Shown piece after piece: positions 31,401-37,400 of a DNA stretch of 64,000 bases (positions are counted from its first letter, which is position 1; every line of letters starts with the position of its first letter). This DNA is from Diadema antillarum. Its lineage: Eukaryota. The stretch is taken from positions 186,001 to 250,000 of the forward strand of contig NW_027271458.1 of assembly GCF_040938485.1 (NCBI RefSeq). Direction: 5' to 3'. Position numbers: made by a program.

Positions 31401-34400
31401 ACTGTCGTTTAGTAAACTAGCTATTATAAACACGATAAACATGCTTGTAACATTGCTCACTTAAACGATGTTTATTTGCTCTAATCTGTGTACATACTTT
31501 CTCAACTTCTGCACTAAATTATGATTATCCACAGCCTGCCAAGATTCTTTTTAAACGATATAATAATGTGTACTTTATTCTCTTAAACATGAAGTTGTTA
31601 GCTTTGAGGTTCGAGAAAAAAATATTAACTTACTGTTCAAGAAATATTTTATGATATCCTAAGTTGTTTGTGCTGTGTACTGATATTGTAAATTGCAGGG
31701 ACGTCTTAACAACTAACTTCTACCTTCCTTTTTTTTGCGAATTGCATAGCTGATGCCATCTTGACTACTTTAAATGGGTGTGGTAATTGTTTCACTGAAC
31801 ACTATTAACTGTGCGCCCTGGCACCGACTTCAAAATGGCGTGGCAGCGGTGGATATCGCGACAACCGTCTTTTTTTTTTCCGCCAACCATATCTCTGCCT
31901 TGTAAATCTTAGGGCCTCATTAATCAAATTGAAATGGGATTCCCGTTGCTGCATGAGTTTATTTTGCAAAGAAAACAAACAAACAAACAAACAAACTAAA
32001 AATGTATTCACGATCGTAAGAGACAAATATCATCACTTTTAAGATTTACTTACACAGGATTACACCATTCCATCGGTGGGTTTATTGGAATTTGGCGGAC
32101 ATATAGTTGATATGAAACTGATGTTTCTTTGACTACAGATGATGCCAATTTCTATGACTTGGGGCTTATATCCTTTCATAGATCTTGTAATCTTGTAGAA
32201 CAACAAGGAAGAACGTAAACATTCAGAGTAAAATACAGAAAAAAGGTGTATTTTCACAAAGATTTAATTTCTAACGCATTCCAAAGCGCGGTTTGGCGGC
32301 CTTTCATTATCTCGTTTTCTACAATATGTCTAATAAGTTGTTCTTCATGTATACTTTTACCAATCGATTTAAGAGTTTCATTCTACCCCACCCCCCATTT
32401 CCCTTTCCATCTTGCTCCTTCATTTCCAATCGATTACATGTGTTCGCAAATTTTCTCATGCGATGGGAAGTAATCTTGTCTATGGGACTTCAACTGCCAT
32501 TTTAATAATTCAATATGAAAAAAACCCCACAATTGAATGAATTTGAAAGGGTCCGTATCACTTTCCCTTCTTTTGCTTTTGCATCGCATCCCTCATGACC
32601 ATTTCCCCCTCGAATCCTGTTTCCCATAACTCTGTTCTGTTTGAAAAGTAGAAAGATGATAATGCATGGGAACAGAAGTGAGAATAAAGGGGCTCTCAAA
32701 TCGATTATGGATAGTTGATCTATCATTCGGTTGAGTATAACGTTATGAATGGTTAGAGCAAGGATCGAAGAGTATTTATTGATGTATATATCAGGCAAAA
32801 TAGGAAAAAATGAAATTATCAAGTGTTACAATATAAATACAAATAATACAAATTGTATGTGTTGCATCAGAAACACAAAGAAATAATGATAAGTGATGTA
32901 TGCGTATACGTACAAATTGATATATTCATATCGTGTCATTAACGTTCTCTTGGAATTTTGAAATATATAGACAATATTATGTCAAAATGTACTATCAAAG
33001 TAAATTACATGATTCATTTTGTACCTTTTTGAGTTGAGCTTTTTTACTTGAACAAGGGGTATCACTGTCTGGAATATATCGGCATGAAGTTGAGGTTGGC
33101 TACTCTGGTGTATAATGTAATTGAAAATGTAATATATTCTTATTGTTGATAAAGTCCCTAGCTTTGATAAGATGATGATTGTACATGAACCGTTCTTCTA
33201 ATGTTCCATGGCTAAGAATAATTGCCACTCTCACATATGGCTGCTTTTAGAAGTTTTTATAGATGTTTCATAAATGTATACTGACTTTACCTATTAAGAG
33301 AACACACTTAGAAAAAGAATATATACATGTCTGACAAATGTTATAAAACCACTTTGAAATATCATCACATCTGAGCTAGTCTCCCAAAGGCTTGTCTCCA
33401 TTTCTTTTTCCTTACTCTCTCTCTCTCTCTCTCCTATCTCTCTTGAAAGAGAGAAAAAAGTACTAATTCCACTGGAATACTGCTGCTCAATGATGACTCG
33501 TCATTGGCTACCTTAATTACGCGTGCGCAGGTGCTCCGAAGCCATTTCATAACCTCAGAGTCAGGCAGCTTTATAACATAATAGTTCCAGTGAGTATTGT
33601 CTCCGACGTTGATAATTACTAGCTCAATCTTCAATCTTGCAAAATGCCCTATGATTACTGACTGTCGCTGAACGTTTACAGTCAATATCAGGGAGCTTTT
33701 ATACAACAAAGCATGGGATATTAGCAACGGGATAAAGGAACCTACATTTTTTTAATGGGACGTTAAAATATCGAAAAATTAATAATTATAAGTATAAGAA
33801 TGCCAGTACATTTACGTCAGAAAAGGAATCTTCAGTCATCTAACTTCAGATAAGGCCAAATCAAATCCGATTCAAAGATCTGCAGTAGAAGATACTTTAA
33901 CGTTAAAGTGATGTCATCATTCGTTCATAAGGGGAATATCTTCTAATATACAAGAGATTTATTCAAATAAACCAGTAGGCCCCAGTCGTGTCGTAGGCCT
34001 ATGTGCTTTGCTTCAGACTAGTTTTAAGGTCACAAGAGAGAGGTATTTGCTCCCTAGCCATACGCATGCAGAAGCATCCTACTTTCAAGAGAAGGTTGTG
34101 GTAAATTGCATCCCTATAAACTGAAAAAAGTGGATCCGTTAGAAAGTGCAATTCGTTTGCCTGCAATATGAAATATCTCTACTTCAATGTGTGTTTCTTT
34201 TTGCAGGACATAAACAGCAATGACAACACCTGCCTTTACCACATTAACAAGCGTTCAACTGGTAATGCTGCTTTCATACTTAGAAAGAGGGGAAAGCAGT
34301 CCCACTTAAGTAGTATTCACCGCTTCGTCTGCAACAGATACCGAAGTAGACAAAATATTGTGGAAAACCATTGAAACCACGCCATATGCTAAGACGATGT

Positions 34401-37400
34401 TTGGGAAAGAAGTTACAACGCAAATTCCTGGAGGGTACTCCGGGAGCAGAGACCGGTTGACCACGCCTTTAGAAGAAATATCGTCATCTTCGAGTGCAAT
34501 TTTCCAGGACTCTCTGGCGCTTTCAAGTGATGGGTATGAGTCTGATATCAGTACGAAAGTCCCATTGTCATCTGGCTGGTCATGGCAAGCCATAACGTGG
34601 TCCTGGTGGCTGATCCTTCAGATGTTCACCGCCATGCTGGGTATTATGGGCAATTCCCTGGTGATCATCGTCTTTTTCACCCGAAGACAACTCAGTTGCT
34701 CCACAGATACCCTGACTGGTGCTCTGGCTGGGGCCGACCTTCTCGCGTCCGTCTTTATGATACCACACCCACTTCCACTCACGGTCCCTTCGTCAGTTCT
34801 CGGGCAGCTGCACTGCAAAGTAGTGTACACCTCCATGTTTCTGTGGGTGTCATTCGATGCGTCAATATTCACCCTAACGGCCATCGCTGTGGAAAGGTAC
34901 ATCGCTGTGGCTTTTCCCTTCCATTCTAAGCATTTATTAACCCGAAAGAGGGTCATCATTGTAATTGTAGCGAATTGGATCTTTGGTTTCATGGTCGAAT
35001 CTTTTTTATTCAATGTCGCAAAAGTTGTTAAATCTTCGAACAACTGCGCTTCGGTGTTTCCTTCTAACGATGTCCAAATGCTCATCGGAACGATTTTGTT
35101 CTTAATGCTCTTCATTATACCCGCCTTGCTGTCACTTACCATGCAGGCAATGACGGCCCACGCCCTGCACCGCCAATCTCTGGTGTTCCGTAAAGAGGGC
35201 AATCAGGAGGGTGGATCGAACCCGTCGGCTAGGCATTTAGCAGCCAGGAAACGCGTCTTACAGATGCTGTTCATAGTGGTTCTCGTCTTCATCGTGTGCT
35301 GGGGTCCATCACAGTGTGTCTATTTCGTCTTTAACCTAGGATTGCTCCCAGACTCGTACTGGTATAGTCCATTAAACAACGCACTTGTTGTCCTTTCTTG
35401 TGGAAACTCCTGTGCCAATCCGATCATCTACACCGTTCGTTACCCAGAGTTCCGCACGGCTATCGGAGAGCTGTTTTCCGCAAAGAAAGGGAAATCTACG
35501 GCACCGTTATTCAGTGAGCGGACAGAGGGGAAACCTGTAAAATCTATACAGAGCGTTGATGCGTAGCCTATATTTGAACTTAATGTAATGTAAGATTTAT
35601 GGCAATGGTAAATTTCTTCACTTTATGAAAAATTAAATTAAATATTTTTGAAATAAACATTAGTATATAAAATGATAAAATACTCGTCATTTTAGCGTTG
35701 ACTTACCAGTGGACGTACATCAACGTGATCAAAGATATATTTTGGCCACAGCTTTTTTATCGATAATATGTATTGGTGGAAATATTGGGGTAAAAAAATG
35801 TTATTGTGTGCATTGTTTTTTGGGGTTTTTTTTTTTTTTTTGGTCCTAAATTGCGAGGAACAACTCCCGGCTCTTTGCTTGACAACGTTCTGCACCAAGT
35901 TATCTTTCTCTTTCTTTGACAAAAGGCATCTTTTTTGTTGACATGCATCCATATTCACCGCTACCTTTTATGAAAATGACATACTGAAACCATGCTGGAG
36001 TTTGGATCAGAATTAAACAGGCCGTGTACAATTTTCGTTTGATATGGAATACTCTATTCACATACACAATATTTATTTATAACATCTTCATATACTTCAA
36101 CAATAAGAATTTCCTCTTGCGTGTTCGGAAAAAGTATTTTATGCATGGTATTTAGGATTGGTTTACACATTTTAGTCATGAACTGTCAAAACTAGCTATC
36201 ATAAACACGACAAACAGCGACAAACATGCTTGTAACCTAGCTCACATAAAGGCTCTTTATTTGCACTATTCTGCGTACATGCTTTTTCAACTTCCGCACT
36301 AAGTTGATTTTATCCCCAGCTTGCAAAGTTTCTTTTTTAAACAATATAATAATGTATTCTTTATTCTCTTGAACATCAAGTTCTTAACCTGAGGGTTCAA
36401 GAAAAAAAAAACAACTTAACTTACTGTTTAAGATATAAACTTATGATATCATAAAGTGTTTGTGCTGTGGACTGATATTGTAAATTGCAAGGATGTCGTA
36501 ACAATGTAATAACCACTATCATCCATTTTTTTTTTGCGAGTTGCATAGCTAATGCCATCTTGACTACTTCTAATAGGTATGCTAATCGTTTCACTGAACA
36601 CTATTAACTGTACGCCCTGGCACAGACTTCAAAATGACGTGGTAACGGTGGATATCGCGACAACTTTTTTATTTTTTTTTTTTTTTTGCCCACCATATCT
36701 CCGCCTTGTAAATTTTAGGGCCTCATTGATCAACTTGAAATGGGATTCCCGTTGCTCCATGAGTTTATTCTGTAAAGAAAACAAACAAACTAAATGCATT
36801 TACGATATTATACCTTAAAATTTGATCTTACATGAACCAGACGAATCGATAAATGCACACTCACACGCACACACACATAAACACACACACACAATATGAA
36901 CGTTCTTGAGAGACAAATATCATCACATTTAAGATTTACTTACACATAACAGATTACACCATTCCATTGGTGGGTTTATTGGAATTTGGTGGATATGGTC
37001 GACATGAAACTAATATTTCTTCACTACAGATTATTCCAATGTCTCTGACGAGGGGCTTATAACCTTTCACAGATCTTGTAATCTTGTAGAACAAGGAAGA
37101 ACGAAGATATTAAGAATAAAATACCTGAAAAAAAGGTGTATTTTACCAAGATTTAATTTCTATCACATTCCAAAGCGAGGTTTGGCAGGCCTTACATTCT
37201 CTCGTCTTTCCCCTATATGTCTAATAATTTGTTTTTCATGTGTACTTTTACCAATCGATTTCAGGGTTTTATTCTACCCCCACCCCATTTCCCTTTCCAT
37301 CTTGCTCCTTCATTTCCAGTCGATGACATGTGTTCGTAAATTTTCTCTTGCGATGGGAAGTAATCCACTCTATGGGACTTCAACTGTCATTTTAATAAAT

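What the first reader, a model, noticed from the sequence alone, without database searches (positions are those of the whole stretch)
31790..36770. Fossil terminal exons of the neighbouring RTN4IP1-like gene inside the GPCR array
Seen: 31830-31963 and 36629-36769 (minus strand) align to the real last exon at 61125-61250, including the acceptor position, EAL.FTR, KTVV/VV and the stop position, with similarity continuing into the 3' UTR. Both lie ~1 kb after a copy-2-type GPCR end, in the same convergent orientation as copy 6 and RTN4IP1; copies 2 and 6 also share N-terminal and TM4 sequence. Inference: an early duplication unit ran from a GPCR through the 3' end of its neighbour, seeding the array. 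The orphan exons could act as distal alternative last exons or antisense terminators; the 36.7-kb copy keeps its AG.
Basis: partly seen in the sequence, partly recalled or inferred. Interest (0 to 1): 0.65.

Follow-up and report, generated by a model that had tools for sequence, protein, structure and literature searches.

The report
Leftover neighbour-gene exon in receptor array
Dead copies of the last exon and tail of a sea-urchin dehydrogenase gene sit between tandemly repeated receptor genes, an ordinary footprint of a duplication that ran into the neighbouring gene.

Summary
The window is sea urchin (Diadema antillarum), not human. The real last exon at 61125-61250 (-) is the C-terminus of the annotated RTN4IP1 homologue.

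About 830 bp, from roughly 30-50 bp upstream of its acceptor to about 680 bp past the stop, aligns collinearly with 31241-32009 and 36012-36809. A profile built from the two array copies alone hits the real locus at E 2.4e-42; the reversed-window control's best hit is E 0.39.

New findings:
- The 3' flank, without the exon, also survives after GPCR copies 4 and 5, at 41598-41958 and 48296-48636.
- No other RTN4IP1 exon or intron has a copy in the array.
- Copy 3 is a copy-4/copy-2 recombinant. The two fossil exons are therefore one old relic that was duplicated later.

The relics look neutral. One lost its AG and its reading frame, both lost the GHARGK motif and the Pfam match, and f1-f2 dN/dS is about 1.3.

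The best reading is a non-functional partial duplicate left at a tandem-duplication boundary. Nothing supports use as an alternative last exon. Genome-wide copy number, synteny and RNA-seq remain unchecked.

The parts
61125..61250 (-). Real terminal coding exon of the RTN4IP1-like gene (41 codons plus TGA)
   Evidence: 100% identical to the C-terminus of P0003, which NCBI names 'reticulon-4-interacting protein 1 homolog, mitochondrial-like [Diadema antillarum]'. It matches the last 32 positions of Pfam ADH_zinc_N_2 at E 2.4e-5.
60450..61124 (-). 3' UTR / downstream flank of the real gene that is homologous to the relics
   Evidence: Collinear blocks. The nhmmer hit spans 61281-60452.
61759..61851 (-). 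Penultimate exon of the RTN4IP1-like gene (donor GT at 61758-61757); no copy in the array
   Evidence: Sequence and match to P0003. The best non-self tblastn hit is E 0.99.
62234..62413 (-). Antepenultimate exon (5' boundary approximate); no copy in the array
   Evidence: The best non-self tblastn hit is E 0.20.
31830..31963 (-). Fossil terminal exon f1 (after GPCR copy 2): acceptor AG changed to AA, frameshift in the A-run
   Evidence: No Pfam match.
31241..31829 (-). Fossil 3' flank belonging to f1
   Evidence: the real locus as query gives E 2.7e-30 over 31982-31240.
36629..36769 (-). Fossil terminal exon f2 (after GPCR copy 3): AG and pyrimidine tract kept, open 46-codon frame with a 15-nt A-run expansion, GHARGK motif lost
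   Evidence: No ADH_zinc_N_2 match.
36012..36628 (-). Fossil 3' flank belonging to f2
   Evidence: E 2.3e-26 over 36777-36014.
41598..41958 (-). Relic of the RTN4IP1 3' flank only (after GPCR copy 4); the exon part has been replaced by other sequence
   Evidence: nhmmer E 1.1e-12 and 7.2e-10 with the u2+u3 profile. The real locus alone as query gives only E 0.73. Alignment.
48296..48636 (-). Relic of the RTN4IP1 3' flank only (after GPCR copy 5)
   Evidence: nhmmer E 7.7e-18 and 2.6e-15. The real locus alone as query gives E 0.0015.
29561..30907 (+). GPCR copy 2 (rhodopsin-type, single coding exon)
   Evidence: Pfam 7tm_1 at E 6.8e-44. 100% identical to P0004, 'allatostatin-A receptor-like [Diadema antillarum]'.
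34220..35566 (+). GPCR copy 3: a recombinant, copy-4-like in the 5' half and copy-2-like in the 3' half, with the switch at about 34.6-34.8 kb. In-frame TAA at 34307-34309.
   Evidence: Sliding-window identities and alignment.
39356..40669 (+). GPCR copy 4
45754..47067 (+). GPCR copy 5 (dS 0.10 to copy 4)
54218..55558 (+). GPCR copy 6, convergent with the intact RTN4IP1-like gene
   Evidence: Its D. setosum orthologue is P0007.
13356..14669 (+). GPCR copy 1; no relic detected in the 15-kb spacer that follows it
31973..32104 (.). Interval holding the presumed duplication junction: about 130 bp between the fossil acceptor and the start of the spacer shared by all units
   Evidence: Five-way alignment. 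Shared homology begins at about 32104 (u2), 42825 (u4), 51197 (u5) and 26760 (before copy 2).

Best explanation
The segments are non-functional partial duplicates (unprocessed pseudogene fragments) of the 3' end of the Diadema antillarum RTN4IP1-like gene.

Inferred history:
1. An old tandem duplication had one breakpoint upstream of the GPCR next to RTN4IP1 (the copy-6 ancestor). Its other breakpoint lay within roughly the last 150 bp of RTN4IP1's last intron.
2. This produced a new GPCR followed by an orphan last exon plus 3' flank. The intact gene stayed next to copy 6.
3. That unit (GPCR + relic + spacer) was then re-duplicated to give the copy-2 and copy-4/5 lineages.
4. The exon part was lost in the copy-4/5 lineage.
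5. Later, unequal crossing-over between copy 4 and copy 2 created the hybrid copy 3 and a second copy of the copy-2 spacer. This gave the second fossil exon.

The relics have since drifted neutrally.

Shown: the homology, its extent, its orientation, its presence in four spacers, the chimerism of copy 3, and the decay of the coding features.

Inferred: the order of events, the single founding unit, and the lack of function.
For: - Identity of the parent: the exon equals the C-terminus of NCBI protein P0003 and matches the end of Pfam ADH_zinc_N_2.
- Homology: the profile from the array copies alone hits the real locus at E 2.4e-42, against 0.39 in the reversed window. The similarity is collinear over about 830 bp.
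- Four of five spacers carry the relic, in the same order and orientation. The stretch between the GPCR stop and the relic is also shared by units 2-5 (E 2.4e-4 and 0.0034, with no reversed-window hit at E<=5).
- Only the terminal exon is copied. The penultimate and antepenultimate exons give no hit better than E 0.99 and 0.20. The spacer profile finds nothing in 61250-64000 better than E 5.7.
- It is not a retrocopy. The pyrimidine tract and acceptor are retained, and no upstream exon sequence is fused on.
- Age is of the same order as the GPCR split. Exon K2P between real and fossil is 0.43-0.52 and exon dS is 0.66-0.88. GPCR dS is 0.52-0.60 between copy 6 and copies 2-5. The u4-u5 relic K2P of 0.107 matches the c4-c5 dS of 0.103.
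- Copy 3 is chimeric: 94% identical to copy 4 in the 5' half and 91-94% to copy 2 in the 3' half.
- Decay: f1 has lost its AG and its frame. Both fossils lost GHARGK and the Pfam match. f1-f2 differences are 1 synonymous against 5 non-synonymous, dN/dS 1.26. Real-fossil dN/dS is 0.40, as expected for one constrained and one free lineage.
Against: - Sequence contiguity of the founding unit is not shown. After about 65-75 bp of shared sequence past the GPCR stops, roughly 270 bp in unit 2 and 4.8 kb at the real locus do not align.
- K2P of the 3' flank between the real locus and the array (0.74-0.81) is higher than the GPCR dS. This may reflect poor alignment, but it could mean a different age.
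- f2 keeps its AG, a phase-0 open frame and the aligned stop, so use as an exon is not excluded by sequence.
- Conservation in the flank is clumped. 25 of 40 columns are invariant in all five copies, a level reached by 45 of 5000 column shuffles. This could reflect constraint or alignment anchoring.
- No relic was found after copy 1.
- Copy number elsewhere in the genome could not be checked.
- The neutrality estimate rests on 6 differences.
Confidence: 0.82

Rival explanations
1. The RTN4IP1 3' fragment entered an array spacer on its own, for example by ectopic repair or capture by a mobile element. It was not part of a GPCR-containing duplication, and it then spread as the array units multiplied.
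For: No alignable sequence links the GPCR 3' end to the relic at the real locus. The flank K2P of 0.74-0.81 exceeds the GPCR dS of 0.52-0.60.
Against: Order and orientation are the same as for copy 6 and RTN4IP1. The fragment ends near an intron position and directly abuts the spacer that precedes the other GPCRs, which is the geometry a tandem duplication predicts. No terminal repeats or transposon protein lie next to it.
Confidence: 0.08
2. A whole RTN4IP1 paralogue was duplicated with the GPCR, and everything except its last exon was later deleted.
For: Short, diverged exons (93 nt) could escape detection at about 65-70% identity.
Against: No trace of the two other exons in the window, or of the intron, was found by tblastn or nhmmer. 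Only about 130 bp separate the fossil acceptor from the shared GPCR-upstream spacer.
Confidence: 0.04
3. The orphan exon at 36629-36769, and perhaps the relic flanks, is in use. It could be a distal alternative last exon of RTN4IP1, or an element that terminates or antisense-regulates transcription across the GPCR units.
For: f2 keeps its pyrimidine tract, AG, phase-0 open frame and stop. A 40-column block is unusually conserved in all five flank copies. An AATAAA lies in the u2 and u3 flanks.
Against: - f1 is broken.
- The conserved GHARGK end of the dehydrogenase domain is lost and there is no Pfam match.
- f1-f2 dN/dS is 1.26.
- The splice would span about 25 kb across three antisense GPCR genes.
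- No database protein carries the peptide (weak evidence, 12 candidates scored).
- An intact 46-codon frame is not unlikely by chance.
Confidence: 0.04
4. The segment is a dispersed repeat that happens to resemble the RTN4IP1 3' end.
For: Five copies lie in 64 kb. Genome-wide copy number could not be examined.
Against: All copies sit at equivalent positions within homologous tandem units. The segment includes a coding exon whose product is the conserved end of a Pfam domain. Nothing else in the window matches.
Confidence: 0.02

Closest known systems
Partial gene duplicates / unprocessed pseudogene fragments at tandem-duplication boundaries
   Same: A duplication breakpoint inside a neighbouring gene leaves a truncated copy that keeps its intron-exon boundary and flank and then decays. 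In the Drosophila simulans complex, partial gene duplicates are reported to arise about twice as often as full ones (PMC7919458; I read one Discussion passage).
   Different: Here the fragment was carried along through several further rounds of array growth, and it serves as a marker for the order of events. It is old (K2P about 0.4-0.8), not a recent polymorphic duplicate.
Echinoderm lineage-specific rhodopsin-type GPCR expansions ('surreal-GPCRs' of Strongylocentrotus purpuratus)
   Same: The genes are 7tm_1 receptors with a single coding exon, arranged in a head-to-tail tandem array. Echinoderm OR-like GPCRs are described as mostly single-exon and tandemly arrayed (PMC7042368; passages read).
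   Different: Membership of a particular surreal-GPCR group was not tested. The NCBI names (allatostatin-A / galanin / QRFP receptor-like) are automatic.
Hybrid genes made by unequal crossing-over in tandem arrays (the textbook example, recalled and not checked here: Lepore-type globin fusions, opsin arrays)
   Same: Copy 3 joins the 5' half of one array member to the 3' half of another and duplicates the intervening spacer.
   Different: Copy 3 carries an in-frame stop in D. antillarum. A protein with the same mosaic pattern is annotated in D. setosum (P0005).
Processed retrocopy
   Same: It is a fragment of a gene lying away from its parent.
   Different: It keeps the acceptor and pyrimidine tract, has no fused upstream exon, and lies in the same orientation next to the parent. 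It is not a member of this class.

Membership tests
Unprocessed partial gene duplicate (pseudo-exon) | Significant homology to a parent gene that includes non-coding flank | tested here: met
   E 2.4e-42 with a profile that excludes the parent, against a control of 0.39. About 680 bp of 3' flank is included.
Unprocessed partial gene duplicate (pseudo-exon) | Intron-exon boundary retained (not spliced out) | tested here: met
   Pyrimidine tract plus AG in f2, and AA in f1, at the aligned acceptor position.
Unprocessed partial gene duplicate (pseudo-exon) | Only part of the parent gene is present | tested here: met
   The other two exons in the window and the intron have no copy. Exons beyond 64000 could not be examined.
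Unprocessed partial gene duplicate (pseudo-exon) | Disabling changes or neutral evolution | tested here: inconclusive
   f1 has a frameshift and has lost its AG. f2 has an open frame but has lost the motif. f1-f2 dN/dS is 1.26, based on only 6 differences.
Processed retrocopy | Upstream exons fused without an intron | tested here: not met
   Intron-like sequence lies upstream of the fossil exon, and no penultimate-exon sequence is present.
Alternative terminal exon of RTN4IP1 | Usable acceptor and in-phase reading frame | tested here: inconclusive
   Met by f2 and not met by f1. Splice-site strength was not scored.
Alternative terminal exon of RTN4IP1 | Transcript or annotated-protein evidence | not testable with these tools
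   No RNA data were available. The protein search with the f2 peptide found nothing at E<=0.1 among 12 candidates, which is weak evidence.
Medium-chain dehydrogenase C-terminus (Pfam ADH_zinc_N_2) | Match to the end of the domain profile | tested here: met
   The real exon matches profile positions 103-134 of 134 at E 2.4e-5 and 25.7 bits, below the 27-bit cut-off for this 41-aa piece. Full-length database protein P0003 scores 79.8 bits. The fossil peptides give no match to this family at E<=10.
Rhodopsin-type GPCR tandem array | 7tm_1 domain, one coding exon, head-to-tail copies | tested here: met
   7tm_1 at E 6.8e-44 and 5.9e-45 for copies 2 and 6, the two copies scanned of six. Six same-strand ORFs that are 77-93% identical in DNA.
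surreal-GPCR groups of S. purpuratus | Placement inside one of the named groups in a tree that includes their members | not tested
   Only Diadema relatives were placed in the tree.

The most novel reading that the evidence does not exclude
The relic is not inert. The copy at 36629-36769 keeps an acceptor, a phase-0 frame and a stop, and all five flank copies keep a 40-nt block. The RTN4IP1 3' module may have been co-opted in each array unit as a transcription-end or antisense element. Read-through from RTN4IP1, or termination between GPCR units, would then help to insulate or coordinate expression of the individual receptor genes.
Probability: 0.05. Interest if true: 0.6.

Novelty: new member of a known kind. 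Interest (0 to 1): 0.25.

Why it matters
The relic is a built-in marker for how this receptor array grew. It identifies copy 6 as the member that stayed at the original position. It shows that copies 2-5 descend from one founding unit that overran the neighbouring gene. It also exposes a later unequal crossover that made the hybrid copy 3.

This helps anyone reconstructing chemoreceptor-like GPCR expansions in sea urchins, and it helps annotators, because the orphan exons should not be called as genes. It does not change what is known about gene duplication in general.

Tried and rejected
- **Retrocopy:** rejected, because the acceptor is retained and no upstream exon is fused on.
- **Whole-gene duplicate:** no relics of the other exons or the intron were found.
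- **Extra relic after copy 1 or elsewhere in the window:** nothing beyond the five sites. The exon-only profile's next hit is E 0.37.
- **tRNA or SINE identity for the tRNA-like tail that replaces the exon in units 4 and 5:** ARAGORN found 0 genes and Rfam found 0 matches at gathering thresholds.
- **Protein isoform carrying the fossil peptide:** none at E<=0.1 among 12 candidates.
- **Homology between the copy-6-to-RTN4IP1 intergenic DNA and the array's stop-to-relic stretch:** none found.
- **Literature on a Diadema GPCR array:** the search 'Diadema' + 'GPCR' + 'tandem' returned 10 papers. Of the 8 listed, none is relevant by title. The two D. antillarum genome papers were seen only in the listing and abstract starts.
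- **Not done, for lack of data or tools:**
  - Synteny in D. setosum or other urchins.
  - Genome-wide copy number.
  - RNA-seq.
  - Splice-site scoring.
  - Paper supplements, which are closed.
- The three RTN4IP1-like exons were searched one at a time.
- The N run at 11583-11727 was left as it is.

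
Full report
**What the window is.** The window is eukaryotic, 38.7% G+C, with one N run at 11583-11727 that I left untouched. The 41-residue peptide of 61125-61250 (-) is 100% identical to the C-terminus of a 430-aa protein. NCBI names that protein 'reticulon-4-interacting protein 1 homolog, mitochondrial-like [Diadema antillarum]' (P0003). GPCR copy 2 is 100% identical to 'allatostatin-A receptor-like [Diadema antillarum]' (P0004). 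I therefore take the contig for sea urchin, not human.

Six same-strand rhodopsin-type GPCR ORFs lie on the + strand. With start codons taken from the alignment, they are c1 13356-14669, c2 29561-30907, c3 34220-35566, c4 39356-40669, c5 45754-47067 and c6 54218-55558. Pfam 7tm_1 was checked for c2 and c6.

Three RTN4IP1-like exons lie on the - strand: 62234-~62413, 61759-61851 and 61125-61250. I searched these exons one at a time and did not join them into a spliced model. The full-length comparison uses the database protein as returned.

**Checking the observation.** The sequences are as described.
- The real exon starts after cag at 61250 and ends with TGA at 61127-61125.
- The 36.7-kb copy keeps a pyrimidine tract and AG (36771-36770). 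It reads as an open 46-codon frame ending at the aligned stop, with a 15-nt expansion of an A-run.
- The 31.9-kb copy has AA in place of AG and a frameshift in the A-run.

The similarity is well beyond chance.
- blastn gives 75.9% over 79 bp (E 5.4e-10) and 72% over 75 bp (E 5e-4) in the 64-kb window.
- tblastn with the exon peptide gives E 5.9e-6 and 2.7e-4, against 0.59 for the next hit.
- An nhmmer profile built only from the two array copies finds the real locus (61281-60452) at E 2.4e-42. The best hit in the reversed window is E 0.39.
- The real locus as a single query finds the copies at E 2.7e-30 and 2.3e-26. The best reversed-control hit is E 3.7.

The alignment is collinear from about 30-50 bp upstream of the acceptor to about 680 bp past the stop.

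**What else is there.** The profile also finds the 3' flank, but not the exon, at 41598-41958 and 48296-48636 on the - strand. These sites lie about 0.9-1.6 kb after GPCR copies 4 and 5.
- The three-sequence profile gives E 1.1e-12 and 7.7e-18.
- The u2+u3 profile gives 7.2e-10 and 2.6e-15.
- The real locus alone reaches only E 0.73 and 0.0015. The link of these two sites to the real gene therefore runs mainly through the copy-2/3 relics.

In units 4 and 5 the exon part is replaced by unrelated sequence. That sequence includes a tRNA-like tail (ARAGORN and Rfam found nothing) and a repeat with a further copy at 53313-53723.

The short stretch between the GPCR stop and the relic is also shared by units 2-5. 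So 4 of the 5 inter-GPCR spacers carry the relic at equivalent positions and in the same orientation as the real gene. The 15-kb spacer after copy 1 shows none.

No copy of the penultimate or antepenultimate exon exists in the window (best non-self tblastn E 0.99 and 0.20). A profile of the spacer beyond the fossil acceptor finds nothing in 61250-64000 better than E 5.7.

About 130 bp beyond the fossil acceptor, the sequence becomes the spacer found upstream of the other GPCR copies. Shared homology starts at about 32104, 42825, 51197 and 26760. This is the geometry expected from a tandem duplication with one breakpoint in the last RTN4IP1 intron and the other upstream of a GPCR.

**Order of events.** Copy 3 is a mosaic. 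Its upstream region and 5' half are 88-95% identical to copy 4. Its 3' half is 91-94% identical to copy 2. The switch lies near 34.6-34.8 kb.

The self-comparison shows the matching pattern in the flanks. 31085-33582 corresponds to 35851-38649, and 33584-35566 corresponds to 38753-40695. Unequal crossing-over between copy 4 and copy 2 explains both the hybrid gene and the second copy of the copy-2 spacer.

The two fossil exons are therefore one ancient relic that was later duplicated (K2P between them 0.12 in the exon and 0.13-0.20 in the flank).

A D. setosum protein, P0005, shows the same mosaic. In its N-terminal window it is 90% identical to c3, 86% to c4 and 62% to c2. In its C-terminal windows it is 93-99% identical to c2. 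Copy 6 has a D. setosum orthologue, P0007, with 100% SH-aLRT support. The array, and probably the crossover, therefore predate the split of the two Diadema species. This rests on protein data only; I had no DNA from that species.

**Age.** GPCR dS is 0.52-0.60 between copy 6 and copies 2-5, and 0.10 between copies 4 and 5. dN/dS across all pairs is 0.23-0.38.

| Comparison | Measure | Value |
|---|---|---|
| Real exon vs fossil exons | K2P | 0.43-0.52 |
| Real exon vs fossil exons | dS (about 18 synonymous sites) | 0.66-0.88 |
| Real flank vs array flanks | K2P | 0.74-0.81 |
| Relics u2/u3 vs u4/u5 | K2P | 0.53-0.58 |
| Relics u4 vs u5 | K2P | 0.107 |

These values are of the same order as the GPCR values. 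The flank figure is higher, and at that divergence it depends on alignment quality.

**Function.** The real exon matches the last 32 positions of Pfam ADH_zinc_N_2 (E 2.4e-5). Neither fossil peptide matches that family at E<=10, and both have lost the GHARGK stretch.

Real-fossil dN/dS is 0.40, which is what one constrained and one free lineage would give. Between the two fossils there are 1 synonymous and 5 non-synonymous differences, dN/dS 1.26. The numbers are small.

No protein in the large collection carries the f2 peptide (12 candidates scored, weak evidence). Splicing from the donor at 61758 to 36769 would span about 25 kb and three antisense GPCR genes.

Against a purely inert reading, f2's frame, AG and stop are intact. 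Conservation in the flank is also clumped: 25 of 40 columns are invariant in all five copies, a level reached by 45 of 5000 column shuffles. Alignment anchoring could produce that clumping.

**Weak points.**
- Contiguity of the founding unit is not shown. Homology after the GPCR stops lasts about 65-75 bp. After that, roughly 270 bp in unit 2 and 4.8 kb at the real locus (which holds a 1.1-kb tandem duplication) do not align.
- Paper supplements were closed.

**Comparison with what is known.** Partial gene duplicates at duplication boundaries are common. One paper on the Drosophila simulans complex estimates that they arise about twice as fast as full duplicates (PMC7919458, one Discussion passage read). 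Single-exon, tandemly arrayed OR-like GPCRs are a known feature of echinoderm genomes (PMC7042368, passages read). A search for 'Diadema' + 'GPCR' + 'tandem' returned nothing relevant among the 8 of 10 papers listed.

**Verdict.** This is a real and well-supported relic, and it is an ordinary kind of thing. It is useful as a marker of how the array grew and as a warning for annotators. I found no sign that it is in use.

Noticed in passing
window 34220-35566 (+), stop at 34307-34309: GPCR copy 3 has a 6-bp insertion that creates an in-frame TAA at codon 30. The remaining 418 codons are open. The gene is a copy-4/copy-2 mosaic, and D. setosum protein P0005 shows the same mosaic.
   Followed up: partly
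window 3872-10372 (-): This looks like an LTR retrotransposon. It has 189-bp terminal repeats that are 100% identical (3872-4060 and 10184-10372). An 852-aa ORF carries RVT_1 and RNase H domains, and a 279-aa upstream ORF has a weak SCAN-like hit. The identical ends suggest a recent insertion.
   Followed up: partly
window 61345-61650 and 12827-13141: A ~310-bp element in the last RTN4IP1 intron is 72.6% identical to a copy just upstream of GPCR copy 1. It also matches itself in inverted orientation, which is MITE-like.
   Followed up: no
window 55905-58116; also 963-1820: A ~1.1-kb tandem duplication (91-93% identical) lies between copy 6 and RTN4IP1. It carries K/E/R-rich ORFs with no convincing Pfam match. 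Separately, there is a ~265-bp tandem repeat at the start of the window.
   Followed up: no
window 13330-13345, 29540-29550, 34200-34210, 39335-39345, 45735-45745, 54198-54208: In every GPCR copy, a conserved pyrimidine tract plus CAG lies about 11-17 bp upstream of the ATG. This suggests a spliced 5'-UTR exon somewhere in each upstream spacer.
   Followed up: no
window ~60915-60955, 31650-31690, 36440-36480, 41830-41870, 48515-48555 (-): A ~40-nt block of the RTN4IP1 3' flank has 25 of 40 columns identical in all five copies. That is more clumped than column shuffles give (45 of 5000 reach it). The cause is unknown and may be alignment anchoring.
   Followed up: partly
window ~42050-42135 and ~48740-48818 (-): A tRNA-like stretch followed by a T-run sits where the fossil exon would be in units 4 and 5. 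ARAGORN and Rfam do not call it. The adjacent 42132-42560 has another copy at 53313-53723.
   Followed up: partly
window 63625-63999 (-): A 124-aa ORF runs off the window end inside an RTN4IP1 intron. It has no Pfam match at E<=0.1. It could be a transposon remnant.
   Followed up: no
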